Notes: a model not told the origin generated them from the sequence alone. A DNA stretch of 64,000 nucleotides, filler included, from Sanchytrium tribonematis (GCA_018985235.1; 6 parts of 6 records of this genome joined end to end with filler, not necessarily neighbours in it), one strand, 5' to 3'. Shown: positions 11,301 to 53,562, numbered from the whole stretch's first letter. Numbers and translations: made by a program.

Positions 11301-14300
11301 TCAATTGAATTTGGCTCCAGAATTTGCTTCTCTTCGTAGACCCTTAGAGCGTCCTCGAATTTACCAAGCTTTTCAAACCAAGATTCTTTCATCGAAATGT
11401 CATATTTTTGAGCAGTTTTCAGCAGACCCAAAGAGACGTCAGGTTGGTCAAGTTGATTATTGATTGCAATCAAACTTTCTATTACATTGCTAGAGGGTGT
11501 TTGTAGAAATTCTAATTCTTTATAATGCAGTGCTTTAGCATAAGCATGGCAACGATTTGCGTAGCTTCCTAATGTTCTTAAATCGATTGGCAAAGGCTTA
11601 TCATCATGTTCCATAAATTCAGCGAGATTTAATAAGCTTTGCAAAACCTCTGGGGGAATTTGAGGACTCAATAATGCAGTTTCAATGCTTCGCACTAATT
11701 CATCCTGAAATTGATCGTACAATTCGCTCCAACAAGAAAGGAATGCAGCGTTAAACAATTCTCTACTAATTGGAGGATAGACAGATGCCAACGATGAGCA
11801 AGCTCGCAATGCATGGCTGGGTGATTCTTTCAGTAACTCGACCGATAACCTTCGTATCCACTCTTGCCAATCTTCTGCTGTACTACGCTGAGAAGCCTCC
11901 CATGTTTTTTTAAGCTGCTGCTGATTTACTGGCAATTTTTTGACACTATTAACATCAGCTATCTGATCGTCTGGATCTGACTTAGTTAGAGTTCTCTCAT
12001 GATCTTCCAATATTAAATCAACCGGCAAAGGCTCACCACTAACCAAAAGATTGATGACTTTGGAATAGTTAGAGTCAAAAATTTGCTTTTGCAACAATAT
12101 TTTTTCCACAAGAGATGCAAAGGGTAAGTAATCGAATTGAAGCTGAACAGCCATTGAAGTCAAGTCAAACATAATGGCCTCTACATACGGACAATCAGTT
12201 TGAGCTAGAAGTCTAATAAGTGGTTGAATAATTCTCGAAATATTATCACTCATGTCTAATTGGCGAGATAGATAGCCAATTGTAATAATCACTTTGTTTT
12301 TTAAAGCAATGGATGTCTCGATGCTCTCTAAAATGCGGATTAAACTTGGCAATATCAAATGGAAATACTCTTCCATTGCAGAGCCGAAAGCAAATAAAGT
12401 GTCCATGACTTTTAAGGAAATATCATTCGTGGGAGATTTGTCTTTTTCCAACAAATTAACAATAAAAGGTGTAATCTGAGGGATATATCCTTTAAATTCT
12501 CCATCTAATGCAAATGATATGCTCTCAAGTAAACTCAAAATTGTCACTTGTATCGTAAAATTGTGATTGCTGTAATTGTCTATTAAAGAAAAAATATCGA
12601 ACAGAAATGGTCTAATATGCTGCCTCACAATTTTAATCAAAAGGCCAAGCTGCTGAAGGTAAAATTCCAACAGACTGCTTACGCAATTTTGTATAATGGA
12701 CAAGAATGGCGGCATAATTTGAGGAAGAAAACCAACGCATTTGAGACCTAATGTTTTGAAAATATACATGACAGCCTGTATGACAGCAGTGTGATGAACA
12801 GAAAGAGATTGGTCTCTCAAAATTTTCATTAATGCGTAAATACTTACTGTAGGGTAGTAGTCATCGCTTGGACTACTAGGTACTATCCCTAGGTAAACTA
12901 AATTTTCTGGATCCAAATCTTCCTTCTTTTTCGTAGTCTCTAAAACTCTTCTAACTAGATTTTTGTATTTATATGGATCCAATGCTCCAAGATTTCCGAT
13001 CAGTCTCATTGTCTCTTTCCTAATATTGGTAGACTGCTCACTTTTTAAGATGTCTAAAAGAGTATCCATCAAACCAGGATAATCCAAATAGGGCTGTATT
13101 GCATTGCTTGTGCTACTTACTAGTAGTCGCATACTTCTTAGTGCTGCTTCTCGTTTACGAACACTGGATTGATCTTGGAGAGTTTCAGTCAATGTTGACA
13201 TTAGATTATCCAGAAAAGGTAAAATTTCGTTACCTTGAAAAATTGAAACTTCCCCAATTGCAACAAGAATCTGGGAAGCAACGCTACTACTACTATCACG
13301 CACTTTTGGAAGCAGTACTCTAAATATACTCTCTACATAAGGGCGGATATAATCTTTGATAGAAATCACTAGCGAACTTAATAATTTAGCACTTTCTTCC
13401 TTTGTCTTGGGAATTTTAGAATACTCGATTTCACTGAGTAGTTGAAAAAGTATTTTTCGGACACATGGCATCACGTAGGCTGGATTTAGCTGCGATAGTC
13501 TTCCAATCAAAGTAATTGTAGATTGTCTTACAGGAAAAAACTCGTCATTAACACTAAGAAATAAAGCTCTGATGAGCTCTGACTGGCACAAAACGTGGTC
13601 AACACTTGGCTCACTAGCTAATGAGCTCATGACCAAATATCTTATTTTCTGGTCTGGATCAGATATTCCAATAGTTGTTAGCCGTACAAGAATCTCATAA
13701 ACAAGATCAAACGACATTTGATTCTTTTGATTTTTGATAGGATCTCTACTTATTACGGAGCAAATAGTTTTTGCGGCAGATGATCTTATATTAGGATCAT
13801 CAAAATCAAGGTACGGAACAACAGCTTCTTGTAAAAAATCTGCTAGAGACTGACCAGTAATTTCAAATGTACTAAGAGTTTCTAAAGCAAGTATTATAAT
13901 TTCTGGATCTTTGGGCTCATAAACTTTGTTCGAAATTTTCTTGCTTAAAAATGCAGGACGATAGGGATGACTGGTCAAAACCATACTCAACAAATTAAGT
14001 AACTTTTCTTGAATAACAGGTATAAATGAAGGAACATTGACTGCAACATCAGATAATGTTTGGCGCATTTGCGATGATAAACCGCTTGAAAAAATCATAC
14101 CCATAAGGTCTGGTATATAAATAGACAATTCCGCAGGAAGAGCTTTTGATAATAACGAAATACACGTAAATATATCTTCTATGCAGAGTTTTCGAAATTT
14201 TCCATTAAAAAGGTCTTTGATCTGCTTTATAATTTGTTCAACGTAATTTTTGCATTCCAAATTGAGATAACAGGCTAATTCACAGCAACAGACTAAAGCT

Positions 14301-15256
14301 TTTGGTCTATCTTTTTCCTTTCTCAAGGGAGAGAGCAGAAATTCGAGCCAAGAACTAATATTTTGAGCCAAAATGGGAGTGAAGTTGGCAGCAAAAAACG
14401 GCAATGTTTTTAAAACTGCTTCTCTTACAGCCGGATCTTTATGGTCTCTATATTTCCATAAATTCTGCTGACATTCATCTATATTGTTTTGCATAAAATC
14501 TTTCGAATACCTGACCATTGCTTGCATAGATAATATACTACCATGAACATATTCGTTACTTCCAGATTTAAAACCTTGCAAAATTTGGCTGTAAATATTT
14601 CTATACCACTGCTCTCTTTGTTGAGAGTCTCGCTGTTGTATTAAGGATAAGCAAACTGAAAAACATTCAGACGCACCCTTTCTTACATTGAGGCGAGGAT
14701 CTCGAAGCGGGATCCATATGCAATCTAATATTTGACCCATATAGCCGTAAAGTATTGTTGAAGCGTTACAAGCGATCTCTTTTATAATCAAAACGGCTGC
14801 ATACCGCTTGTATTCGGTTTTATCATTCATTAGCCACTCGATAGATCTTTTTACTTCAAATTCTACGAGTTCAACTGCTAGCGAGCCACCAATTGATGGC
14901 GAAGATAATTTACCCATAGCTTTCGCAGCATATTCCATGACTTGTAAGTCATTGCAAGGTAAAACCATTCTCAAATAATTGCAAAATCTTGTAAGTTTTA
15001 CCGTGTTGTCTTCAGTATCTAAATCAATTAGTTCGCTTATCACGAATATACCGCATTTTTTTTCTTCTGGATCATTGCCATGTATTAACTCAAATATTTT
15101 TCTATTTAGGTCATTTATAAATTTAAGGAGTGCATCCGACGATAATTCAGAATTAGTAACATTTACTATTGCATCTCGGAGTTGAACTAATCCATGGTCC
15201 CTATATCTTTTGTCCTTGATAACCTGTTGTAAAATAAGATTAATGGAAGTATCCAT
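8269..15256 (-). CDS. TOR: Target of rapamycin kinase; exons 15256-8737 and 8717-8269 (2322 aa)
   Basis: HEAT, FAT and FRB ([16 protein letters not shown]) regions, kinase motifs (SKQRPRK, GDRHPSN, HIDFGD), and FATC ending GWCAFW. The intron restores VNAMEVSGIEG. Confidence 0.98.
8718..8736 (-). other. 19-nt spliceosomal intron in TOR
   Basis: gtaattttgatttatctag; removal gives the conserved AMEVSGIEG. Confidence 0.95.
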
Positions 15257-17606: not shown

Positions 17607-18627
17607 TTAAAAGTCAACGTCTGTTGTGAAAACCATTCTGTTTTCATCAGCGGCTTTGCTACTATTTAGAACACCGCTTTTTTGGTATTCACTGACTCTT
17701 TTTTCAAAAAAATTGGTCTTTCCCTCAATACTGATCATATCCATAAAGTCAAATGGATTGTTTGCATTGAACATTTTAGGACAATTTAATGCACTGAGCA
17801 ATCTATTTGCACAAAATTCGATATATTCTTTCATCATTTCCGCATTCATTCCAATAAGGCTGACTGGTAGTGAATCAGTCAAAAATTCCTGCTCAATAAC
17901 AACTGCATCTGCTATAATTTTGTTGATTGTTTCTAAAGAAGGCTTGTTCTTAATGTATTTGAATAACAAACATGCAAAATCGGTATGCAAGCCTTCGTCA
18001 CGGCTAATCAACTCATTGCTGAAAGTTAATCCAGGCATAAATCCACGTTTTTTTAACCAGAAAATTGACTACGTAAATCAGAAATACAGCAAAACTACCA
18101 CTAAAAAAGATGCCTTCTACCGCTGCAAATGCAACTAGTCTTTCACCGAAATTGCTGCCGCTTTTAATCCATTTCAAAGCCCAATCTGCTTTTTTCTTGA
18201 TACAAGGGATAGTGTCAATACTATTGAAAAGTCTAGTTTTTTCTTCTTGGTCCTTAATGTATGTATCGATCAAAAGGGAGTAGGTTTCTGAATGGATGTT
18301 TTCCATCATCATTTGAAAACCGTAGAAACATCTTGCTTCAGGTAATTGAACATCCTTTGCAAAACGTTCAACCAAGTTCTCGAGGACGATTCCGTCACTC
18401 GCAGCAAAGAATGCTAAGACATGCTTTATGAAATGCTGCTCATTTTCATTCAACTTATCCCAATGCTCTTGGTCTTTACTCAAATCAATTTCTTCTGCAG
18501 TCCAGAAAGACGCTTCAGCTTTCTTATACATTGCCCAGATATCACCATACTGGATTGGGAACAGCACGAAACGACCCGGGTTCTCTCTGAGTAAAACTTC
18601 GTCATCAAGATTGATATTTCCTGTCAT
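17607..18627 (-). CDS. RNR2: Ribonucleotide reductase small subunit; exons 18627-18088 and 18068-17607 (333 aa)
   Basis: [43 protein letters not shown] and KTNFFEKRV. Confidence 0.97.
18069..18087 (-). other. 19-nt spliceosomal intron in RNR2
   Basis: gtatttctgatttacgtag; removal restores the conserved [13 protein letters not shown]. Confidence 0.96.
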
Positions 18628-28330: not shown

Positions 28331-28423
28331 TAAATCGTGAGTAAATATTGATATACTGTATTTTTTGCAACTTGTTATTGACCGTAAAAGAGGCAGTTTC
28401 CACCTAAAGATGAATTGTGAAAC

Positions 28424-28909
28424 ATGAGCTTCCTTTTAGCCCTAGATTTTGCTGCAAAAAAACATAAAACTCAGAGACGAAAAGATGAGATAACACCTTA
28501 CATTAATCACCCTATTGGTGTTTGCCTCATAATCGAGGAAGCAGGTATTAATGATCAAGATATAATGAAAGCCGCAATTTTGCATGACGTCTTAGAAGAT
28601 ACAGACTCTTCATATGAAGAATTGCAGACATTATTCGGAGATAAAGTGGCGAATCTTGTTAAAAGTGTTACTGATGACACTAGCCTGCCGTCTGACGAAC
28701 GAAAAGCTGGTCAGATATTAAAAATGAAAACTGCTTCGAATGAAAGTAAGATAATTAAGATGGCAGATCGTATTTATAATCTGAGAGATATGAAAATCTG
28801 GGATAAGGAAAAACAAAATCGATATAAATTATGGGGCAGACGGCTACTGGAAGTCTGTGTTGGAACTAACGATAAGCTAGAATGCTGGCTTGAATTGGAA
28901 TGCAAATAA
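28424..28909 (+). CDS. HD-domain (p)ppGpp hydrolase, MESH1/HDDC3-like
   Basis: FAAKKHKTQRRKD, PYINHP, AAILHDVLEDT, VTDD and KMADRIYNLRD. Confidence 0.9.
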   Translation: MSFLLALDFAAKKHKTQRRKDEITPYINHPIGVCLIIEEAGINDQDIMKAAILHDVLEDTDSSYEELQTLFGDKVANLVKSVTDDTSLPSDERKAGQILKMKTASNESKIIKMADRIYNLRDMKIWDKEKQNRYKLWGRRLLEVCVGTNDKLECWLELECK

Positions 28910-28948
28910 AACATTAAGAATTCAATTAAGGATTTCTCCTTGTTGTGA

Positions 28949-31687
28949 ATGCCAACTTTGGATGTTCATTGTAGAAATTGTGGTACACATCTGACAACGA
29001 ATGAAAGTCTCTTCTTTTTAAACAAGTCTCCGTGTGAGCTTGTTGTCAATTTGGACCAAAATTACAGCCTAGATACCAAGACGAATGAGTTCAATTTTAA
29101 ATGCACTCAATGTAAATTCACACTTGGGTCATATTCTGGGAACCATGGTAACTTTGATGTAGAAACCATTAGTGGTACATTGGATGGTTTTGAGATCAAA
29201 GGAAATATGCAGGATTGGAGGAAATATTGTACGAGTGTGGAAGTCAAGGAGCCTGAGGATGACGGAAAATTACAATGTAACAAGTGTGGCATTATAATTA
29301 TTTCGACTTATAAATTGTCATTTTTCGTAGAATCTCAAACTACAGTCAGGCTTGTGTTGAATCCTAAAGTACAAGAAGTAGTATTGAGTTCAAATGAATT
29401 GAACATCAAGCCTTCCAAAGACAATATGAATATATCGAATGTTTATTGCAAAAATATGGACTGGATTGGATTAGCTAGACCGTTGGAAGAATCTAGTAAC
29501 TTTAATTATGTACAGTTCGAACACAGCAAGACCTCTCTTTATATGTATGGGAAGAGACAAATTGAAAGGTATAACAAAATGTACAAATATTTGGGACTCG
29601 AAAAAATTTATAGTAACAAATTGCGTAAAATATCCAATTCCAGGTTTGAAATGCTGCCTATTAATTTGCCTTCTCACGATGAACTTTGTAAACTCATTCA
29701 GCATTACAATTTAACAAAAACCAAACCATATGACTTTCAAGTTGAAATGCTATATTATGCAGTTTTTTCCAATACCATTATTCACCTTATCACTGGCGCT
29801 GGTAAAACTCTTGTTAGTTCTATGGTTATCAAAATACTTCACAATCTTAATCCAGATAGATTATGTGTCGTTGTGGAACCCACTGTTCCTCTGGTTGGTC
29901 AACAAGCATCTTATTATGAAAAAGAGTTGGGACTTAAAGTTGTCAAGTTGTACGGTGAAATCAAAGACAAAGAGAGAGAGAATATATGGTTACAAGGCAA
30001 AAATAATTGTGATATTTTAGTTGTAACTCCCAAACTTTTTCAAGATTTAATTGAATCGACAAAACTTACCTTCGGTCAAATCGCAGCTATCATCATTGAC
30101 GAATGTCACAACGTGGTAGGAGGTCATCCAATCAATCAAATTCTTGAAAATTATTATAGTGTATTAGAAGCTGATGTTAGACCTAGATTAATAGGGTTGA
30201 CTGCTTCGCCGGTTAATGCTGTAGATGAAAGAACAGTCGTTAGTTCCAAATTAGAAAATTTACAACGAACATTCTGCGGAAAGGTTGTCACTCCTATGGA
30301 ATGTAATATGATGAGAATTCTAGACGTTGCCGAAATGATTGTGGAGCCAATACTAAATTATCAGTTAGATGAAGTATTCCCAAAGTTGTTAGATACTTTT
30401 CTAGAGTCTATTGCCACTCTTTTACTAATTAAAAAAGGTTTAGAACCTCTAAAGAAAAATCCAAACTGGATATCGTTCTACTCAAATAGGCACCTAATTT
30501 ATGAAACTGATTTTAAATTGAAGGAATTTTGCCTAAATTTGATTCAAGCTTTGGATATAAATTACGTTTTGGGACCGTATGCTACTGCGACTGCTATTTT
30601 AAAACTGCTAGACACTTTCGAAATTAATTCGCTAGAAAACAATATCATTTGCATAATTGATGAGTTTATAAACAATTTAAAATCTCTAGTTTCACGTTAT
30701 CAGAATTGTGGTTATTCTCAAAGATCCAATTGCCTGATTAATTTACTAGAGCAATTTATCTCATCTTCTAATGCGTATGAAATAAGCCAGACAAGAATAT
30801 TAATCTTTACTGATAAAAAGATATATTCTCGCTTTTTATATCGAGCCCTAAATGAGAACAACATACTTAAAAATTACAATCCTACCTTCATTGTGGGACA
30901 AGGTGGAAATGGTAAAATGAATTGGGAAAAAGATCAAAAACATATATTGAAGAATTTTGAAAATGGAGTGTCCAAAATTTTGATTAGTACTTCTGTCCTT
31001 GAGGAGGGTTTAGATATATCACAATGCAGCCATGTAATATTATTCAGCGATGAGTCTATAAATCATTTGAGAATGATTCAAATGAGAGGAAGGGCTCGTA
31101 AATCGGAAGGAAAATTCATCATTTTATCTAATCCAAATAATATCGAAGCTATTGTTAAACGAACCATTAAAGACTTGTCTAAAGAATGGAAGAATGTCAA
31201 ACTAGATATTAAATTAATAGAATTTATCTCCAAGTTTAAATCCTCAAAAATAATAATACCGCAAGCCCCACATGAAAAACCATGCCTGAATGAAATTAGA
31301 TTTGATTTTTTGACAGACGAGTATACTGATGATGACTTGGACAATCTAATATCACTGTTGGGCAAATCAGATATAAAGTGTGAGAATTTTGTTATATCGT
31401 CCTCTCAGACTCATACTGAGCTACTATTTAATCTATCTGAAGCCTTGGCTTCTACCCTACCTTCTCTCTGTTGGAAAATTAGACCCAGCAATATTGACTT
31501 CAAGCCAGCAGTCGATCATATTCTTTTCTCCGTCAACCAGGTTTCTAGAGGATTTTCTGTAGACAAAACTCAATTTTGTTGTATAGATTCTACTCATCCG
31601 GAAAAAATCAAAATACTGGATTTTAATTTGAACGAACTTTCTTTGGAATTTCCCTACAAAACATGTATGGCAAAAGCACACTTTCAG
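28949..31687 (+). CDS. Dicer/RIG-I-like DExD/H helicase with two N-terminal Cys-rich domains; 3' truncated at the contig end
   Basis: TGAGKT, DECH, GLTASP, TSVLEEGLD and QMRGRAR; N-terminal CRNC..CTQC and CNKC..C. Confidence 0.85.
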
Positions 31688-31787
31688 NNNNNNNNNNNNN
31701 NNNNNNNNNNNNNNNNNNNNNNNNNNNNNNNTTAATTAATTAANNNNNNNNNNNNNNNNNNNNNNNNNNNNNNNNNNNNNNNNNNNN
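31688..31787. other. Artificial contig-joining spacer
   Basis: 44 N, then TTAATTAATTAA (stops in all six frames), then 44 N. Confidence 0.98.
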
Positions 31788-34700
31788 CTGAAGACGAAGA
31801 AGGCGCTCTCTCAAATCGTTAGAGGATTTTTTGTCTGCTTTAGACGTAGTTTCCGCAGGAGTTATATCTTCCTCGGCTTTTGAGGATTCGCGATCTTCTG
31901 ATTCCTTTTCTTCCAAATCAGCTGACTGCAAATCTTCTTTTATGGAAGGATCCTTCTCATCTTGCGACCTTGAGACTTCCTCCTCGACATCTTCGTTTTC
32001 ATCATGGCTTTCACGCGCCTGTGGCTCATTCTGAGTTTCAATGATTTCCACATGAGCTGAAGCCTCTTCTGTCTCGCTGACAATTTCTTTGCCCAAGCTG
32101 ATTGTAGGAGATTTCAAGTTGGGAGATTCAGGTTCAGGTGTTTCCACTGCAGGAGAGGGCTTTACCACTTTGATTTTTTCTTCAAGATCTCTGACTTTTT
32201 TCTCTGCATTAACTTTTGCTATTCGAACACCTCCCAGTTCTTCCCTCAAGTCTTCAATCTCGTGGATCAGAGCTTTATTTTTGTTTTGCATGTTTTGAAG
32301 CATAGCACCACTGTTTTTGATTTTTTTTGAGAGATCATTCTTCTCGTACGTTATACTTTCAAATTTTTTTTGGATGTCCTCATACTTGTGTCTCAATTCA
32401 TTCAAGTCTTCTTTCTGTGACTCTTGTGGATTATTTTTCACCAAGTAGCTCCTTGATCGATATTCCTGAATTTGAGACTGTAACTCTGTCACTTGGTTTT
32501 GGTATTCTTCTAATTGCTGTTGCAATTTCCGTTCCATGCGAGGAACATTGAGAAGTTGATTTTCAAGCTCCAGTATTTTGTTTCTCTGTTGATGCATGTC
32601 ATGGGTGAGTTTTTGCTTATCATTTCTGAGAGATTGATTCGCATCCATAAGACTGGAATTTAATTCAAATTTGACGGGTGGTAAGATTTCCGGAGCTTTG
32701 TTGCGAAGATTTTTCACTTCCATCTGAAGAGTATCATTTTGATTCCTCAAGAGCTTGATAATATCATTTTCATTATTGTTTTTCAAAATTGTATCTAATT
32801 GAAAAATTTGAGTGTTTTTCTCCTGAATTTCAGTTTCCAATGTAGTAATCTTGGCATTCAGTTTGTTTAAATTTGATTTCAGGCTTAAAGATTCACTTTG
32901 TAATTTTTTGTTCAACTCTAACTCTTTCGCCAACTGCATTATATGTTGACGATTTTGATCGTTTGAATTTTGCAAGTCAAGCTTAAGAGAGTCAATCATT
33001 CCAATATTATCATTAAGTTGCTGCTGTATGGATTTGATTGTGAGTTCAAAATGGGATTTTTCGCTTCGCAACATCGAAATAGTTGCTTTTGATTCGTTTT
33101 CCTTTGAATTTTTTTCAGTTACTAATTTCTTCAATAGATTTTGCTGACTTTCCAAATCAGCCATTGCTTTTGAATGTTGATTTGAAAGGGTATCATTTTC
33201 TACTGTCAATTCATCAATGTTTTTCTGTAAAGTTGCCTTAATTTGGTCGAAATGTTTCGAAAGCTGGTCTTGAGTGGTGGATTGATCGGTCAATAACTTT
33301 TGAAGTTCATCGACCTCGTTTTGTCTCTGCTTTAAAGTAGCTCGAACCTCATTCACTTCACTTCTACGTTATAATGGAATACCTTTTAATTTCTAACAAA
33401 GCATCATATTTCTCTTGAATTGTAGCATCCTCTGAATCTGCCAGCATCTTGACTTTTTCCTCCGCAGCGTACAGATCATTACTTAATCGAGAATTAGTAG
33501 TTTGTAGATCCTCTTTTTCAGACTGTAGCTGAAGATATTTCATTTGCTTTGCCTGCAGTTCATTGTTAAGTTGCTGATATTGTGAATTCACCTTATTCAA
33601 TTGCTGTTTTAACTTAACATGATCCTGTAGCACCTGACTATTAATAGAGTCTTTTTCTGTTTGTAATACATTAAGTTTAGTTAAAAGCTCTTTTCTAGTT
33701 TCACTAATTTCAATATCTTTCTTCTCTAACTTGCTTTTCAATTGATTAAGCAATTGATTTTGCTCATTGTCTTTCATTTTCATAGATTTCTGGTATTGTA
33801 ATAGCTCTTGATTTTTTTGCTGAATTTCATTCGTCAAGGATTCATAATGTTTAACTCTGTTTTCCAGATTTGTTATTTCCAACTGGAGATCAATATTTAA
33901 TTGCTTCAAATGCGAAAATTGAGTCAGCTCATCTTCAAATTGGTCTTTTTGAGTTTTTGAATGTTCTTGTAATTCGATTTGGTGATCTAGCAACTCCTTT
34001 ATTTGTTGGTCCTTTTGTTTATTAATGTTTTGCAAACTTTTAAGATTTACGACAGTGCTATCATAAGATGTTTGCATTGTTTGTTTTTCCAGCATCAACA
34101 GCTGCAATTTGTGGTCTTTCGCCTTCAATTCTCTATCATGTATATGTTGCAATTCTGTGACCTGTTGAGTGGTTGTCTGCAATTGCGATTGCAAATTTTG
34201 AAGCTCTTCATTGTTTTTTAGCTTTTCATTTAATAATTTTAAATCTTTTAGTTCTTTGGAAATTGAAATATTGATATTTTTAAGCTCGGAATAGCTCGTG
34301 TTAAAATTTTCGACTTGAGCCCGCAGATCATTGATGATTTTCTCGTATTTGACCATTTTTTCTTTAGGATTGCCACCATATTGTTGCTGCAAGTTAGAGA
34401 CTTTTTCATTTAATTTGTACAATGTCGAGATAAGATTTTGATTTTGATCTTGTAATTCTTTGATATTTTCAAACGTAATTAAATCTAACTTATTTAAGCT
34501 GCTATCTTCATGCTCCATTGTTTGATATTTGACCATAGAAGGATGATTAGTGGATGAATGAGTAGTATTGAGCAAATGTTGTACTTGAAGACCAAGATCT
34601 GTATTTAACTTCTTCAAAACAACGTAATTACTTTGCAACTTGTTTAATTCCAAATCACGAGTATGACAAGCTCGCTGAAGAGAATCTGATTCTTTTTGCT

Positions 34701-35982
34701 TCTGCTTCAAATCATTTTCCAGCTTGTCGACTTGATTTAATATCTCATTGAATTCATCTCTACTCTTGAAGTATTTTGGAACTCGGTCTTCGTCGATTTC
34801 CTTTTTGTATTGTTGCAATAATTGACTTAATTGAACAACTTCCGCGTCTTTACGTTGTAAATTAATCTTTAAGGTATTTCTTTCGTGAACAACTTCTTGA
34901 ATGCTTTCAGAAATATTATTTGTCGCCTGTAATACATCAATTTGATGTCGAGCTTGATGTAACTCTTTTTTGGTATCTTCTAACTCAATTTGACTATTTT
35001 TTATGGCTTCTTCATAATTTTTAGACTGTTCAAAAATATGATTGCTAGCCTCGCTGTAATCTTTTTCATACTTTTTTATCAAATCTTCTAAAATTTGGAT
35101 ACGTTCCTCTCTTTTCTGTGTCAAGCTTGACATATTTGACTCTTCTTTCTGAAATTGTTCTAATTGTTGCTGTTGTTGACGCTTCAATTGTGAGTTTTCT
35201 TGTTTTATGCTATCTAGCTCTCCCATGTACTCATTAACTTTTGTCGACAAAACTTGAATCTCTAATTTATACCTTTGCTCTCCATGCTTGGCTTCATTGT
35301 AGTAGGAATTCTTAATTTGATCCTTAGATTTTAAATATTGTTCAGAGAGGGATTTAAATTTGGCTTCAATATTAGCTTTCTGTTCTTTATACAGGGCGCA
35401 TTCAGATTTGAGGGAGTTGATCGTATGTTGCGTAACTGGATCTTCGACATCTTCTGCCTTGGTTTCCAATTCCTCCAGTATTTCTTCATATGCTTTTCGA
35501 ATTTCTTGAAGTTCCAGATTGATAATTTTGTTTTCATTCTGTAATTTCATTTTATCACTATTCAAAGTTATAATTCTAGAACTTTGTTGAGTAATTTGAT
35601 CTGTCAGTCGACTAATTTGATCTTGCTGGTTCCCCAATTGAGTTCCAAATTGCTCTAGTATGGTAGAATGATCTGCATACGAGGCATTTTCTTCAAAAAC
35701 ATCATCCAAGACTTGATTCGACTCAGATTCAGCCTCAGACTGGTCAACAGCATCAGGTTCATTTTCTTGCACCATTTCATCATCAACCAATTTATCTTCC
35801 TCTAGACTAGCTCCTGCGGAATTATAGTCGTCAATCACTGATTCCATATCTGGTGTATCAATGTATTCACCTGGAACATCATTTTCTAATTTCTCGTCTT
35901 CATCCTCTTCCAAAATAGACAATTCTATTTTCTCTGTCACATCTTGCCGCATTTCCGGTTCATCGTAAGAGTTGACATCCAT
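31788..35982 (-). CDS. Long coiled-coil protein, TPR/Mlp1 nuclear-basket-like; exons 35982-33383 and 33363-<31788, 3' truncated
   Basis: DLGLQVQHLL and LITFENIKELQDQNQNL match TPR/Mlp1 blocks; a 19-nt intron fuses the two ORFs in frame. Confidence 0.7.
33364..33382 (-). other. 19-nt spliceosomal intron
   Basis: gtattccattataacgtag; removal joins IKR|SEVNEVR in frame. Confidence 0.88.
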
Positions 35983-36141
35983 ATTGTTGACTGTTTCAAA
36001 AAGGAGATTTTGCAAATTGTAAATGAGAATGGAAATTAATTTATTCGAATTTCAAATTATAAATAAATTCAAGTGTTATTGAAGCTTGGCCAATGCAAAT
36101 AAACCGTTAATTTCTTTGCAATTTCAATCCCTTGTAACAAG

Positions 36142-38209
36142 ATGAATATTCGGCAATTTCCAACCAGAATTAAATGGTATAATTGCGGACCCACAACTTA
36201 CGATCACAGCCACATTGGTCACGCCAGAAATTATGTCTGTATAGATATCATAAGAAGAATTTTGCTGCACTATAATCATCATATAATTATGCTTCAAAAT
36301 GTCACAGACATTGATGACAAAATTATCAATAGAGGAAGACACATATTTTTAGTTAATTTATTCTGGGCTAAACCCAATAAGGAATCAATGCATTTAGCCC
36401 TTGATAAGTATATTAAAGATTATTTTAATTGCACAAACCAGGAATATCCTGTAAAATCAAATGAAATGCTCAAAATAGCTACTGATATAGAAGAAAAGGC
36501 CAAAATTGAAATGAGGATTGTTGCAGTCAAAAAGTTCCAGGAACATATGAATGGAACAAGCAACTCTGCCAATGATGAAGTGTATGAAAACACATTTGAC
36601 GTACTTGCCTATTATCTTGACTCTGTAGCCACTGAAACTGATTTGAAATCTTATAGTGATGATCACAAGCAATTTACTGATATGAGTAGATATTGGGAAA
36701 ATGAATATAACAAAGATATGGAAACATTAAATGTCATGCCACCTAATATAATAACACGTGCGACAGAATATATTGGACCTATTATCGAACACATCAATTT
36801 GATCAAAAAAAATGGATACGCTTATGAAAAAAACAATAGTGTTTACTTTGATGTGGTAAAGTTTAATAAAGAGCATGGTTACAGCAAATTGGAACCTCAG
36901 CATGTTACAGACACATTTGGGAAAGAAGACACCACTGGTGAGAAAAAGCACCTCGAAGACTTTGCGCTATGGAAAGCAAGTAAAAGTGGAGAACCCTCTT
37001 GGGAATCCCCATTTGGCATTGGTCGACCTGGATGGCATATTGAATGCTCAGCTATGGCTTGTCATTTTTTTAAAACCCTCGATATTCACAGTGGAGGTAT
37101 TGATTTATTGTTTCCTCATCATACCAATGAATGTGCTCAGGCAGAAGCCGCATATTTGCAGAAGTGGTGCGAAAAATTTATCCACATTGGCCATTTGCAT
37201 ATTAAAGGCGCCAAAATGAGCAAAAGTCTAAAAAATTTTATCACTATTAAAGACATGCTTAAAAAGTATACTCCGCAGCAATTTCGATTATTATGTTTAA
37301 TGCAGCCATGGCAAGGTACACTGGATTACCAAGAGGAGACGATGAAAGAAGTTTCAAGTGCTGAAAGCACCATTAAAAACTTTTTATTGAACGTTAAAGC
37401 TAAACTTTTGGAGCGAAATACCTGTATGCCACCCTTTAGCCAACTCGAACTAGATTTTTTAGAAAAAATGCGGATGTTGCAGGAAAGTACAGACAATAAT
37501 TTACAAGAATTAAACACTCACCATGTTATCCAGGATGTACTCAGGATCATAAACGAGGCTAATAGCCATTCTCTGGACGCGAGGATTTTACAATTAATAG
37601 CAGAGTACATTACCCAGATCTTTAAAATTTTGGGACTCATAAATTCCAACTTGAAAGTCGATTACAGCTATCAAGAGTCAAGCGTATTATTATTTAATGT
37701 AGAATGAGGCTGATGTGCTCCCGTTTGCTCAAGTTTTGAGCCAGTTCAGAGATAAGGTTCGGTCTTCCGCAATTGAAAGTAAAGATAAACAACTTTTACA
37801 AATTTGTGACGATCTTAGAGATAAAGATTGCGTAGACATTGGACTCAAATTGGATGATGTTGGTGGTGGAAAGGCGTTGATAAAGCTTGTAAACAAAGAA
37901 GACCTTAAAAAAGAAATGCAAATGAAATTGGAAGCCACTAAACTGAAAGACTTGGAGAGGTTGAAACAGAAAGAAGAAAAGCAAAAAAAAGAATTGGAGA
38001 AATTATTGAAAGGCAAGCTTGCGCCGCACGAATTATTCAGTACAGGAGAGCGGAGTAAAGAATTTTCTAAATGGGATGAAACTGGTTTTCCTACGCATGA
38101 TGCATCAGGTGAAGAGTTGAGCAAGGCTAAAACTAAGAAATTAAAGAAAGAATATGACAATCAATTCAAACTCAACGAAAAATATTTAAATTATTTGAAA
38201 TCTCAATAA
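36142..38209 (+). CDS. CARS: Cysteinyl-tRNA synthetase; exons 36142-37683 and 37703-38209 (682 aa)
   Basis: WYNCGPT, HIGH, DFALWK, GRPGWHIECS and KMSKS; exon 2 carries FRDKVR and CDDLRD. Confidence 0.97.
37684..37702 (+). other. 19-nt spliceosomal intron in CysRS
   Basis: gtattattatttaatgtag; phase 0, gives an in-frame fusion. Confidence 0.92.
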
Positions 38210-38250
38210 AAAGTTTAAAGGAGTCTTGTAACATTAGTACATTGTGACCT

Positions 38251-38483
38251 ATGACAGAAATTCAGACCTTAAACACTACAAAGGTATTTGAAGGAAATTT
38301 GATCAAATTTAAATATTTTTCCAAATCATTGCAGTCAGAAACTAAATTTCAGGTATTTTACCCAGTTGAGTCAAATTCTACATTATTATTTTTAAGCGGG
38401 CTATCTTGCAATGAAGACAACTTCATACAGAAGAGTGGAGTATTAAAATATGCTAGCGATTTCAAAATGGCAGTAGTTGCACG
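38251..38483 (+). CDS. ESD: S-formylglutathione hydrolase (esterase D), 3' truncated
   Basis: FEG..S.SL..KF.VF.P and FLSGLSCNEDNFIQKSG. Confidence 0.9.
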
Positions 38484-47306: not shown

Positions 47307-47855
47307 ATGATCTCCTTTGAAATTTACAATGATTTACCAAATCAATTCAAACAAACCAAATTAACAGATAAAACCATTCAAACATATACAAAATGGATTA
47401 GAAGATATATGACATTCTGTGATACAAAGCATTTAGATTATGGCACATCTCATAATAAAATGATGGAAACTGTCAAGGATAAAAAACAACGCATGCAAAT
47501 TAGACGTGCTATTGGGTATTTTTATCAATTTGCAGGGGTTGAAGATGTGAATAATCCATGTAAAATCACTGGATATCAATTGGTAGCAAATCAAGAGAAT
47601 AAACAATATCAATCCTTTTTAAATCAAAAAGAGGATGCAATGCAAGTCATTGATGATAAAATGGATCAAAATAATAGTAAACCCGTTAAACCAGTTGAGC
47701 CAGTCGTGATTAAACCAATACCACAACTTGAAAAAGTCGTGGAAGCATTTGAATTTGATGATGATCACGAGAGTATTCGGCAACAAAAATTAAACATGTA
47801 TAAATATGGAATCAAGAAATTAAGTGAATTAATGCAAATGGTGCATGAATTATAA
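47307..47855 (+). CDS. Protein with an N-terminal tyrosine-recombinase core-binding (SAM-like) domain and no catalytic domain
   Basis: LTDKTIQTYTKWIRRYMTFC..QRMQIRRAIGYFY..NNPC resembles integrase SAM-like N-termini. Confidence 0.55.
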   Translation: MISFEIYNDLPNQFKQTKLTDKTIQTYTKWIRRYMTFCDTKHLDYGTSHNKMMETVKDKKQRMQIRRAIGYFYQFAGVEDVNNPCKITGYQLVANQENKQYQSFLNQKEDAMQVIDDKMDQNNSKPVKPVEPVVIKPIPQLEKVVEAFEFDDDHESIRQQKLNMYKYGIKKLSELMQMVHEL

Positions 47856-52060: not shown

Positions 52061-52160
52061 NNNNNNNNNNNNNNNNNNNNNNNNNNNNNNNNNNNNNNNN
52101 NNNNTTAATTAATTAANNNNNNNNNNNNNNNNNNNNNNNNNNNNNNNNNNNNNNNNNNNN
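52061..52160. other. Artificial contig-joining spacer
   Basis: N44-TTAATTAATTAA-N44. Confidence 0.98.
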
Positions 52161-52677
52161 AAATAAAAAACCAAGACAGACACATCAAAACTCCATGGGT
52201 CGTTTGAAGAGCTGAGCTGTAGTTATCCAAAGCACTGAAATCTCCATTTTCTAAATTCATTTTGAAACTACCACTCAAATCATGATACGGTATAGCTGCA
52301 CTTTCATCAGCAGAATTAATTTTATCAACACCCCAGCACCATATAAAAGAATTAACGGTATTGATTGTTGGCTTGTTGGGCTCTAACAATGTTCTAGAAA
52401 GCTGTGCTGTGACTCGATTGTTACTAGTTCCGGAATTTAAAAGATTCCAGCTATTTTTTTGACTCGCAATATCGTGACCGGCTCCTTTTCTATTGGTAAC
52501 GACAACTTTGTCATTGTTTTTCCAGATAATAATCATATCAGAGCCATCCATATTAGCCCCGGTCCCAAAAGCTCCAAAACCAAGTGTGGAATCATAGTCT
52601 ATGGTGATATTAACGTAAGTATCAACTTTAAGCGCCTTTATGCATAATTTTTTGTCGCTAGTGCAGAAGGTTGACAT
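52161..52677 (-). CDS. DOMON plus cytochrome b561 (ferric/cupric reductase-like) protein, 3' truncated
   Basis: FGAFGTGANMDGSDMIIIW (heme Met) and IPYH (heme His), then the first b561 helix THGVLMCLSW. Confidence 0.85.
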
Positions 52678-52913
52678 GAAACAATGTTTTTGGCTTTAAA
52701 GATCGAATTTTGTGAGAACGAAAAGGATTTTTCTGTTTAAAGCTGAAATTTAACATTACTAGTCAAATTTGATTTTTAAAAACTCCGAGGATCCCAATCT
52801 CAAAACGTATGTCACATCGCAAGCCATGTGCTCGCTTTGTAGCCATCTTATTGGTTCAAGTAATTATAAAACATACGCACATGCACATAGCCTTTTGAGA
52901 GATTTTTGATTCG

Positions 52914-53562
52914 ATGTTATTTTCCTTGTATTTGACAATCTATGGTCATGTCACCGCCAATCCGAATTCTGGGCCTGCTAAGGGGTATTTCGTGTCGTAC
53001 TTTCGTATTGGGCATGCCTGCACCGCGTCTGAAAGTACCACATCAGTTGAAATTCAAATTCCCGATGGTATCTATACTGCTAAGCCTAAGTTCACTGCTG
53101 GTTGGACTTATAACGTGACTTCGGTAGCTCTGGATAAACCAATTTCGAATGGAGAATCAACTATCACTTCCAAGGTGACTAAAGTGTTATTTACAAGTGC
53201 TGCTGGTCTCCCTAACGATGCTTTTGAAGATCTAGGATTAAGTTTCCAACTGCCTGATGCGGCTGGATCGGCCTTGTTTTTCAAAACAACACAATTTTGT
53301 ACGTCAAACACGACCGCATGGGTCAATATTCCCGCAAATAATGACCCTGCGCAATGGGAGACAACCCCAAAACCAGCGCCATATATTAAGGTATTGGCAG
53401 CTGAAGGCTCAAGCTCTGCTGACACTACTGCTGCAACTCATGATCCAACAGTATTGGGAATTGGAGTCGCTGGTATTATTTATTAATATAGGATTAGTCA
53501 TAGGAGTTATTGCTATCTCAATAGCAAGTGTTTTGGCAATTAAATTGAAAAAGAAGAATTAG
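52914..53562 (+). CDS. YcnI/DUF1775 copper-binding protein with C-terminal TM anchor; exons 52914-53472 and 53492-53562 (209 aa)
   Basis: Signal peptide then HVT.NP; FRIGHAC, TT.V.I.IP.G, KP....GW, F.T.Q.C, W..IP and PAP; TM helix followed by KLKKK. Confidence 0.85.
53473..53491 (+). other. 19-nt spliceosomal intron in the YcnI-like gene
   Basis: gtattatttattaatatag; removal completes the TM helix. Confidence 0.88.

What the first reader, a model, noticed from the sequence alone, without database searches (positions are those of the whole stretch)
28949..29600. Dicer/RIG-I-type helicase with two N-terminal Yippee/RLR-CTD-like zinc domains
Seen: two repeats precede the DECH helicase, VHCRNCGTHL..FF..LVV..FKCTQC..LG and LQCNKCGIII..FF..LVL..VYC..WIG. 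Established: this spacing is typical of the beta-tent fold shared by Yippee/Mis18, cereblon and the RIG-I C-terminal RNA-end-binding domain. In RLRs it is single and C-terminal. Inference: a rearranged RLR-like dsRNA sensor or RNAi factor in a fungus-like organism.
Basis: partly seen in the sequence, partly recalled or inferred. Interest (0 to 1): 0.7.

Follow-up and report, generated by a model that had tools for sequence, protein, structure and literature searches.

The report
Twin RIG-I-type domains heading fungal RdRP
Two cysteine-rich domains, predicted to fold like the RNA-end sensor of animal RIG-I receptors, sit in front of a Dicer-type helicase in a gene that an assembly gap cuts off; its closest relatives continue into an RNA-copying and an RNA-tailing domain, so it is likely the front of a giant RNA-silencing enzyme rather than a stand-alone immune sensor.

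Summary
Residues 1-227 of the ORF at 28949 form two beta-tent domains by profile and predicted fold. The best structural matches are RIG-I/LGP2/MDA5/DRH C-terminal domains (Z 8.3-9.9). The helicase is not FANCM/Mph1, but it is not an RLR either. The ORF has no stop codon; it runs into an assembly gap at 31688. It is colinear over residues 4-909 (38% identity) with a 2,532-aa Amoeboradix gromovi protein that continues into a eukaryotic RdRP and a TUTase/Cid1-type nucleotidyltransferase domain. In trees its helicase falls among helicase-RdRP fusions, with a Dictyostelium discoideum and an oomycete protein. That fusion type is in print. An N-terminal RLR-CTD-like domain and a tailing domain are not mentioned in the papers I could search. 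Both are family-wide: 52 and 43 of the 62 RdRP-bearing hits among 150. Specific here is the tandem duplication, seen only in this gene and its closest relatives. Repeat 1 is short and acidic; repeat 2 lacks its fourth cysteine. RdRP and tailing domains are inferred from orthologues, not seen in the window. RNA binding is untested. Earlier scan notes report the single-domain form. Verdict: new variant of a known kind, interest 0.5.

The parts
28949..31687 (+). Visible 5' part (913 codons, no stop) of a gene likely about 2,300-2,500 codons long: 2x beta-tent + Dicer-type helicase + linker, cut by the gap; RdRP and nucleotidyltransferase inferred from orthologues
28949..29260 (+). Beta-tent repeat 1 (aa 1-104): CxxC (C8, C11) and CxxC (C52, C55), terminal Trp motif; short and acidic (net -7, pI 4.8)
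   Evidence: VIA Z 9.9 (rmsd 2.9, 97 aligned) to LGP2 CTD, 9.5 to RIG-I, 7.6 to Mis18a; 26.2 bits, 0 of 500 shuffles
29264..29629 (+). Beta-tent repeat 2 (aa 106-227): C110, C113, C167; fourth Cys absent (D171 aligns to His in both orthologues); basic here (net +7), neutral in orthologues
   Evidence: VIA Z 8.3 (rmsd 4.7, 101 aligned) to duck RIG-I CTD, tied with MsrB1 7.9 and Mis18 7.5; 25.5 bits, 0 of 500 shuffles; Pfam weak
29630..29719 (+). Linker of about 30 aa to the helicase, low model confidence
29720..31129 (+). DExD/H helicase of the Dicer/RLR/Hef group (aa 258-727), with motif I at 281, DECH at 384, TAS and motif VI at 711 all present
   Evidence: Pfam DEAD, ResIII, Helicase_C; best PDB hits Dicer helicases, E 2e-44; motifs; trees
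31130..31687 (+). Post-helicase region (aa 728-913), colinear with the helicase-to-RdRP linker of P0114/P0113; ends where the pre-RdRP PH-like region begins; no Dicer or RLR domain found
   Evidence: 23.9 bits vs the two orthologues, 0 of 1000 shuffles; no match to the distant-family profile
31138..31139 (+). Site where run X1 has 27 more bases (9 codons, in frame); by hand count these restore the spacing seen in P0114
31688..31787 (.). Artificial gap (44 N + 12-base linker + 44 N) that truncates the gene; true size far above 100 bases or a join of non-adjacent contigs

Best explanation
The two N-terminal repeats are predicted beta-tent domains of the RIG-I C-terminal-domain type, and the ORF is likely the first third of a giant RNA-silencing enzyme (2x beta-tent, Dicer-type helicase, eukaryotic RdRP, TUTase/Cid1-type nucleotidyltransferase) of the Dictyostelium Rrp / oomycete RDR family, cut by an assembly gap. 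Shown here: the repeats and helicase motifs, the truncation, colinearity with two full-length orthologues, and the helicase's place in the tree. Inferred from orthologues: the RdRP and tailing domains. Inferred mechanism: the beta-tent plus helicase head would grip an RNA end or duplex, as the CTD plus helicase of C. elegans DRH-3 does for worm RdRPs, and would use ATP to load or move the RdRP. The nucleotidyltransferase would tail the 3' end of target RNA to mark or prime it, and the RdRP would make the antisense strand for Dicer/Argonaute silencing of transposons or viruses. In the duplicated head, repeat 2 (next to the helicase, full length, basic here) is the more likely RNA contact. Repeat 1 (short, acidic, four Cys kept) is more likely a structural or protein-docking unit.
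For: Top 7 hits among longer proteins all carry RdRP PF05183 (8 of 22 hits). P0114 (Amoeboradix gromovi) aligns over aa 4-909 at 38%, P0113 at 41%; both have both repeats, RdRP (E 5e-124, 2e-105) and PF22600 above its cut-off. They are also the two best of 1.84 billion representatives, E 1e-179 against 7e-56 for the next. The contig of run X1 goes on 927 bases past the ORF end; its first 30 letters read in frame without a stop and resemble the next residues of P0114 (hand translation). Helicase trees: inside the helicase-RdRP clade (SH-aLRT 94, 95, 89), with D. discoideum P0281 and Pythium P0215. RdRP DxDGD present in 15 of 15 relatives; nucleotidyltransferase triad in 10 of 14, P0114 included. 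Fold: top 9 VIA rows are all RLR/DRH CTDs. Analogues in print: DRH-3 binds RdRPs and 5'-ppp RNA (PMC8464030); S. pombe Rdp1-Hrr1-Cid12 (PMC3380556); Tetrahymena Rdr1-Rdn1/2 (PMC8694037); RrpC silences DIRS-1 (PMC3950715).
Against: Neither RdRP nor tailing domain is in the window: tblastn of nine relatives finds only this ORF, and no whole genome is held. aa 763-913 do not match a profile of 13 distant helicase-RdRPs (-1.3 bits, 523 of 1000 shuffles as high). RdRP-free members lie inside the clade (P0268, two bivalve zinc-finger helicases). P0113/P0135 lack the third nucleotidyltransferase Asp. Foldseek gave no hit at E<=0.001; for repeat 2 the RLR match ties with MsrB1 and Mis18; repeat 1 rests on four sequences, pLDDT 54-72. 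Repeat charges in the orthologues are not basic (-2 to 0), which weakens RNA binding.
Confidence: 0.75

Rival explanations
1. Stand-alone permuted RLR-like dsRNA sensor or DRH-like Dicer cofactor: the gene ends soon after the gap and has no polymerase.
For: The fold is RLR-CTD-like. 21 of 150 hits have beta-tent plus helicase without a detected RdRP, and P0268 seems to end in another domain. An AU test does not reject RLR plus helicase-RdRP as one clade (p 0.224).
Against: Both close orthologues are full fusions, and colinearity runs to the last visible residues. 7 of those 21 RdRP-less hits carry the pre-RdRP PH-like region, so they look like fragments. The frame stays open past the gap in run X1. 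No CARD, and no CTD after the helicase.
Confidence: 0.07
2. The gene is the helicase-RdRP fusion, but the repeats are Yippee/Mis18/cereblon-like protein-binding or structural modules, not RNA-end binders.
For: Pfam Yippee-Mis18 scores better than RIG-I_C-RD on repeat 2 (E 0.008 vs 0.16). Repeat 2 ties with Mis18 and MsrB1 in VIA. Repeat 1 is acidic and lacks the long central hairpin of the other domains in the alignment.
Against: Top fold matches are RLR CTDs. The family profile picks out RLR CTDs along their whole length, including the terminal Trp motif. The domain sits beside an RLR/Dicer-class helicase in 73 of 150 hits. A relative scores RIG-I_C-RD at E 1.6e-5.
Confidence: 0.15
3. It is a Dicer whose RNase III half is lost in the gap, or a FANCM/Mph1/Hef DNA helicase.
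For: Best PDB sequence hits are Dicer helicases. Hef proteins appear among the hits.
Against: Dicers (SH-aLRT 98-99) and Hef/FANCM (100) form clades without it. 0 of 39 RNase III-bearing hits have the beta-tent. No Pfam family on aa 728-913 at E<=10, and no score against a Dicer post-helicase profile.
Confidence: 0.03

Closest known systems
Helicase-RdRP fusions: Dictyostelium discoideum RrpA/RrpB/RrpC; oomycete, Hydra and Nematostella RDRs (PMC4791657, PMC3661229, PMC3950715)
   Same: N-terminal DEAD + helicase-C in front of an RdRP; the RDR-linked helicases form one clade apart from Dicer's (as in PMC4791657). The window helicase falls with a D. discoideum and a Pythium protein.
   Different: The passages seen give only helicase and RdRP domains. 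Here the family also has an N-terminal RLR-CTD-like domain and a C-terminal nucleotidyltransferase, and this lineage has two beta-tents. The RdRP part is not visible in the window.
RIG-I-like receptors and C. elegans DRH-1/DRH-3
   Same: Beta-tent zinc-domain fold (Z 8.3-9.9) paired with a DECH helicase of the same superfamily branch; DRH-3 works with RdRPs (PMC8464030).
   Different: The domain is N-terminal and doubled, not C-terminal and single; no CARDs; helicase outside the RLR/DRH clade; repeat 2 lacks the C4 zinc site; polymerase likely on the same chain.
RDRC complexes: S. pombe Rdp1-Hrr1-Cid12; Tetrahymena Rdr1-Rdn1/Rdn2
   Same: RdRP working with a nucleotidyltransferase and, in S. 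pombe, a helicase.
   Different: Separate proteins there, one chain in the orthologues here. Hrr1 is a different helicase class (SF1, recalled, not tested).
Yippee/Mis18, cereblon, MsrB beta-tent proteins
   Same: Same fold (VIA Z 5.6-7.9; weak Pfam Yippee-Mis18 hit).
   Different: Lower or tied fold scores; not attached to a helicase.

Membership tests
Helicase-RdRP fusion (Dictyostelium Rrp / oomycete RDR type) | N-terminal DEAD + helicase-C domains with GxGKT and DExH | tested here: met
Helicase-RdRP fusion (Dictyostelium Rrp / oomycete RDR type) | Helicase belongs to the RDR-linked clade, apart from Dicer helicases | tested here: met
   SH-aLRT 94, 95, 89 in three quick trees; includes D. 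discoideum P0281 and Pythium P0215; no bootstrap
Helicase-RdRP fusion (Dictyostelium Rrp / oomycete RDR type) | RdRP domain (PF05183, DxDGD) on the same chain | tested here: inconclusive
   Hidden by the gap at 31688; present in both close orthologues; frame open for the 30 letters visible past the gap
Helicase-RdRP fusion (Dictyostelium Rrp / oomycete RDR type) | Role in small-RNA production or transposon silencing | not testable with these tools
   needs genetics or small-RNA data
RIG-I-like receptors / DRH | Beta-tent domain of the RLR-CTD type | tested here: met
   (predicted model, pLDDT 65.7)
RIG-I-like receptors / DRH | CTD placed C-terminal to the helicase | tested here: not met
   both copies are N-terminal; no Pfam family on aa 728-913; no C-terminal beta-tent
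RIG-I-like receptors / DRH | Helicase inside the RLR/DRH clade | tested here: not met
   RLR/DRH clade 98-99 without it; a sister relation is not rejected (AU p 0.224)
RIG-I-like receptors / DRH | C4 zinc site in the CTD | tested here: inconclusive
   repeat 1 has four Cys; repeat 2 has three plus Asp (His in orthologues); zinc binding not measured
RIG-I-like receptors / DRH | Binding of dsRNA or 5'-ppp ends | not testable with these tools
   only net charge computed
Dicer | DUF283/PAZ/RNase III after the helicase; helicase inside the Dicer clade | tested here: not met
   orthologues carry RdRP instead
FANCM/Mph1/Hef | Helicase inside the Hef/FANCM clade | tested here: not met
   Hef/FANCM clade 100 without it
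TENT/Cid1/TUTase nucleotidyltransferase (inferred C-terminal part) | GS-x-DxD...D catalytic triad | tested here: inconclusive
   not in the window; intact in 10 of 14 relatives including P0114, third Asp lost in P0113/P0135

The most novel reading that the evidence does not exclude
The RIG-I sensing unit (beta-tent end-binder plus Dicer-class helicase) is older than animals. It exists as the head of a pan-eukaryotic single-chain RdRP complex (sensor, helicase, polymerase, tailing enzyme), and animal RLRs/DRHs are its permuted, polymerase-free descendants. In sanchytrid-like fungi the head was duplicated, and the copies split the work: one RNA-end cap and one acidic docking domain.
Probability: 0.25. 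Interest if true: 0.8.

Novelty: new variant of a known kind. Interest (0 to 1): 0.5.

Why it matters
PMC4791657 says it is unclear how a Dicer-like helicase would help an RdRP. An unannotated RLR-CTD-like domain at the head of most of these fusions gives a testable answer: substrate-end recognition as in RIG-I and DRH-3. The fused tailing domain makes the protein a natural one-chain version of the RDRC complexes. It also bears on where the RIG-I sensor domain came from. The tandem form offers two diverged copies to compare in one protein. The weight is reduced because the fusion type is in print, the scan has already noted the single-domain form in other genomes, and this copy is truncated by the assembly.

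Tried and rejected
Single-sequence AlphaFold2 of all 913 aa failed (pLDDT 35) and was not used. ESM Atlas gave no usable hit for aa 1-240 or for relative P0149. Foldseek gave no match at E<=0.001. The first homologue search, limited to 502-1598 aa, missed the true orthologues and showed mostly Dicers, Hef and MDA5. The metagenome locus scan found no relative: 136 pattern matches, none confirmed. No whole genome is held. No RNA holder listed. Run X1 may be the source of the window, so it is not independent. Repeat-1 versus repeat-2 profiles were significant for the window's repeats (0 of 300 and 1 of 300 shuffles) but weak or not significant for 4 of 4 orthologue comparisons. A tree of the domains did not resolve whether the two repeats are sisters (AU p 0.415), so 'tandem duplication' rests on position and shared fold. 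The first architecture count missed helicase starts and was replaced. A C-terminal CYTH-like barrel claimed in earlier notes was not tested; Pfam showed none at E<=0.5. Three paper ids were not held: Martens 2002 is cited second-hand through PMC4791657, and a 2014 comparative-genomics review of RNAi (recalled) could not be read and may describe these domains. No complex prediction was run.

Full report
1. Setting. The window is gene-dense eukaryotic DNA of about 34% GC with few apparent introns. Its RNA polymerase I subunit scores higher against two yeast chains than against human (1116 and 1098 vs 968 bits). It is made of six pieces joined by 44 N + a 12-base linker + 44 N. The finding is the start of an ORF at 28949 that has 913 codons and no stop before the gap at 31688.

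2. Observation. Pfam finds DEAD, ResIII and Helicase_C at aa 273-716, and only sub-threshold Yippee-Mis18 (E 0.008) and RIG-I_C-RD (E 0.16) on repeat 2. A profile built from 11 single-domain relatives, none with two repeats, hits aa 7-62 and 108-214 (E 5.5e-6, 6e-6). Among 212 stored proteins it otherwise hits, outside the family, only RLR/DRH proteins, in or next to their C-terminal domain. Shuffles: 0 of 500 reach the score for each of six repeats from three proteins. AlphaFold2 on aa 1-258 with a 20-row family alignment gave pLDDT 65.7 and pTM 0.51; only 4 rows cover repeat 1. Foldseek found nothing at E<=0.001; its best rows are MDA5, RIG-I CTD, DRH-3 CTD, cereblon and LGP2 (E from 1.7e-3, probability 1.00). 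VIA-align against 48,161 chains ranks nine RLR/DRH CTD entries first. Repeat 1: LGP2 Z 9.9 (rmsd 2.9, 97 aligned), RIG-I 9.5, Mis18a 7.6. Repeat 2: duck RIG-I CTD 8.3 (rmsd 4.7, 101 aligned), tied with MsrB1 7.9 and Mis18 7.5; cereblon 5.8. Repeat 1 keeps four Cys, is short and has net charge -7. Repeat 2 has three Cys, with Asp171 where both orthologues have His, and net charge +7 (orthologues -2 and 0).

3. What the gene is. The search limited to 502-1598 aa gave 111 hits, mostly Dicers, Hef and MDA5. Its top hit, Ostreobium P0002, has RIG-I_C-RD (E 1.6e-5) at the N-terminus and an RdRP-associated PH-like domain behind the helicase. The search among longer proteins gave 22 hits; 8 carry RdRP, including the top 7. 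P0113 (2,322 aa, unnamed ENA record) and P0114 (2,532 aa, Amoeboradix gromovi) have both repeats, the helicase, RdRP and PF22600 above cut-off. P0114 aligns with aa 4-909 at 38% identity, which leaves about 1,600 codons missing. tblastn of nine relatives finds no other piece of the gene in the window. The host is therefore likely a sanchytrid-like early fungus (inference).

4. The gap. One contig of run X1, which may be the window's source, covers 28400-31686 and runs 927 bases further. Its first 30 loose letters read in frame as TIYPNIYID, like the residues that follow the aligned part of P0114 (hand translation). The right side of the gap lies on other contigs, one with 2,454 bases left of 31788. 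The 100-base gap is a placeholder, and nothing seen closes the gene early. X1 also has 27 extra in-frame bases after 31138. Against this reading: aa 763-913 match the two orthologues (23.9 bits, 0 of 1000 shuffles) but not a profile of 13 distant members (523 of 1000), nor Dicer or RLR profiles.

5. Family. An HMMER search of 1.84 billion representatives listed its best 150 of 5,424 hits; 7 of the 150 were already known to me. With my own profiles, 62 of 150 have RdRP. Of those, 52 have an N-terminal beta-tent, 43 a nucleotidyltransferase and 40 both. 0 of 39 RNase III-bearing hits have a beta-tent, and 0 of 150 have one after the helicase. 21 have beta-tent and helicase without RdRP, 7 of them with the pre-RdRP region. 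The beta-tent profile was iterated on these same hits, so the count is lenient; it missed the Cys pairs visible at the start of D. discoideum P0281. Two repeats were called only in the window protein and P0113; P0114's first repeat fell below that cut-off but passes and aligns. Named members: D. discoideum, Polysphondylium, Heterostelium, Synstelium, Cavostelium, Endostelium, Pelomyxa, Pythium oligandrum, Ostreobium. P0281 has PF22600 at 28.8 bits, cut-off 27. DxDGD is present in 15 of 15 relatives examined and the nucleotidyltransferase triad in 10 of 14.

6. Helicase trees (IQ-TREE quick, LG+G4, SH-aLRT only, rooted on Hef/FANCM; groups labelled from the Pfam columns and names). One search used 77 rows after 4 of 81 were dropped for a missed motif: helicase-RdRP clade 94, Dicers 98, RLR/DRH 99, Hef/FANCM 100. 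One search used 56 rows (21 near-duplicates left out): clade 95; the AU test of helicase-RdRP plus RLR as one clade gave p 0.224, not rejected. One search used 77 rows: 41 family rows plus 2 bivalve zinc-finger helicases at 89, sister to Dicers at 98.

7. Mechanism. Shown: anatomy, motifs, truncation, orthology. Inferred: a head that binds RNA ends and moves or loads an RdRP on the same chain, with a tailing domain that marks or primes 3' ends, feeding small-RNA silencing. Analogues: DRH-3 binds RdRPs, its CTD prefers 5'-ppp RNA, and it is hypothesised to help RdRP translocate (PMC8464030, passages). S. pombe RDRC is Rdp1, Hrr1 and Cid12 (PMC3380556, passages). Tetrahymena RDRCs hold Rdr1 and Rdn1 or Rdn2 (PMC8694037, passages). 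Dictyostelium RrpC silences DIRS-1 (PMC3950715, title and passages). The window holds a long retrotransposon ORF, a plausible target class. The split of labour between the repeats is my inference from length, charge and position.

8. What is in print. PMC4791657 (12 of 26 passages) describes DEAD-helicase-C-RdRP proteins in oomycetes, Dictyostelium, Hydra and Nematostella as one clade; its main text has 0 hits for RIG-I, zinc or nucleotidyl. PMC3661229 (passages) and the Figure S1 legend of PMC3950715 (one supplementary file not searched) name only helicase and RdRP domains. PMC6396948 (passages), PMC8371127 (term counts) and PMC10328071 (passages) add nothing on it. Ten library searches, seen as listings, showed no paper on an N-terminal RLR-CTD-like domain or a fused tailing domain in these RdRPs. 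Subscription papers, database annotations and unread supplements may hold it. Earlier AI notes of this scan report the single-domain form in other genomes; they are leads, not support, and I read them after stating my reading.

9. Verdict. A real feature, misread because of the gap. It is filed as a likely member of the helicase-RdRP fusion family, with the RdRP itself untestable in the window. It would work like a DRH-3/RdRP or RDRC module on one chain, and it is not an RLR, Dicer or FANCM. New variant of a known kind; interest 0.5.

Noticed in passing
window 31138/31139: Run X1 has 27 more in-frame bases here than the window, between short direct repeats; likely an assembly slip or allele in the window.
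   Followed up: partly
window 28400-31687 vs 31788-38483: In run X1 the left contig has depth 86 over 48.8 kb, while the right side has about 200 with two half-depth variants. The organism may be heterozygous, or the pieces may not be neighbours.
   Followed up: no
window 31688, 38484, 45279, 52061, 58851: Five identical artificial linkers join six pieces; genes at these edges are cut, including the coiled-coil Tpr-like gene at 31788-35982.
   Followed up: partly
window 28424-28909: Small HD-domain gene (HD_4; Mesh1-like, recalled) ends 39 bases before the helicase ORF, same strand.
   Followed up: no
window 58998-62966 and 63335-63784: Open 1,322-aa ORF with endonuclease, reverse transcriptase and RNase H (non-LTR retrotransposon), next to a hAT dimerisation domain.
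   Followed up: no
window 52108-53486: DUF1775 gene (a mostly bacterial family, recalled) beside a DOMON/cytochrome-domain gene; possible horizontal transfer.
   Followed up: no
window 47307-47855: Weak phage-integrase N-terminal SAM-like hit (E 4.6e-5, below cut-off).
   Followed up: no
window 8269-15256 and 17607-18627: TOR and ribonucleotide reductase small chain stop before the end of their Pfam domains, with further ORFs just downstream; likely rare introns or frameshifts.
   Followed up: no
proteins P0006, P0122, P0127, P0268: Bivalve multi-zinc-finger helicases and P0268 fall inside the helicase-RdRP clade in one tree but have no detected RdRP: possible polymerase-free offshoots or gene fragments.
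   Followed up: partly
protein P0202: Dinoflagellate (Breviolum) protein joining a protein kinase to a Dicer-type helicase.
   Followed up: no
proteins P0256, P0288, P0322, P0325: Family members with extra N-terminal segments before the beta-tent that look like dsRNA-binding domains by eye.
   Followed up: no
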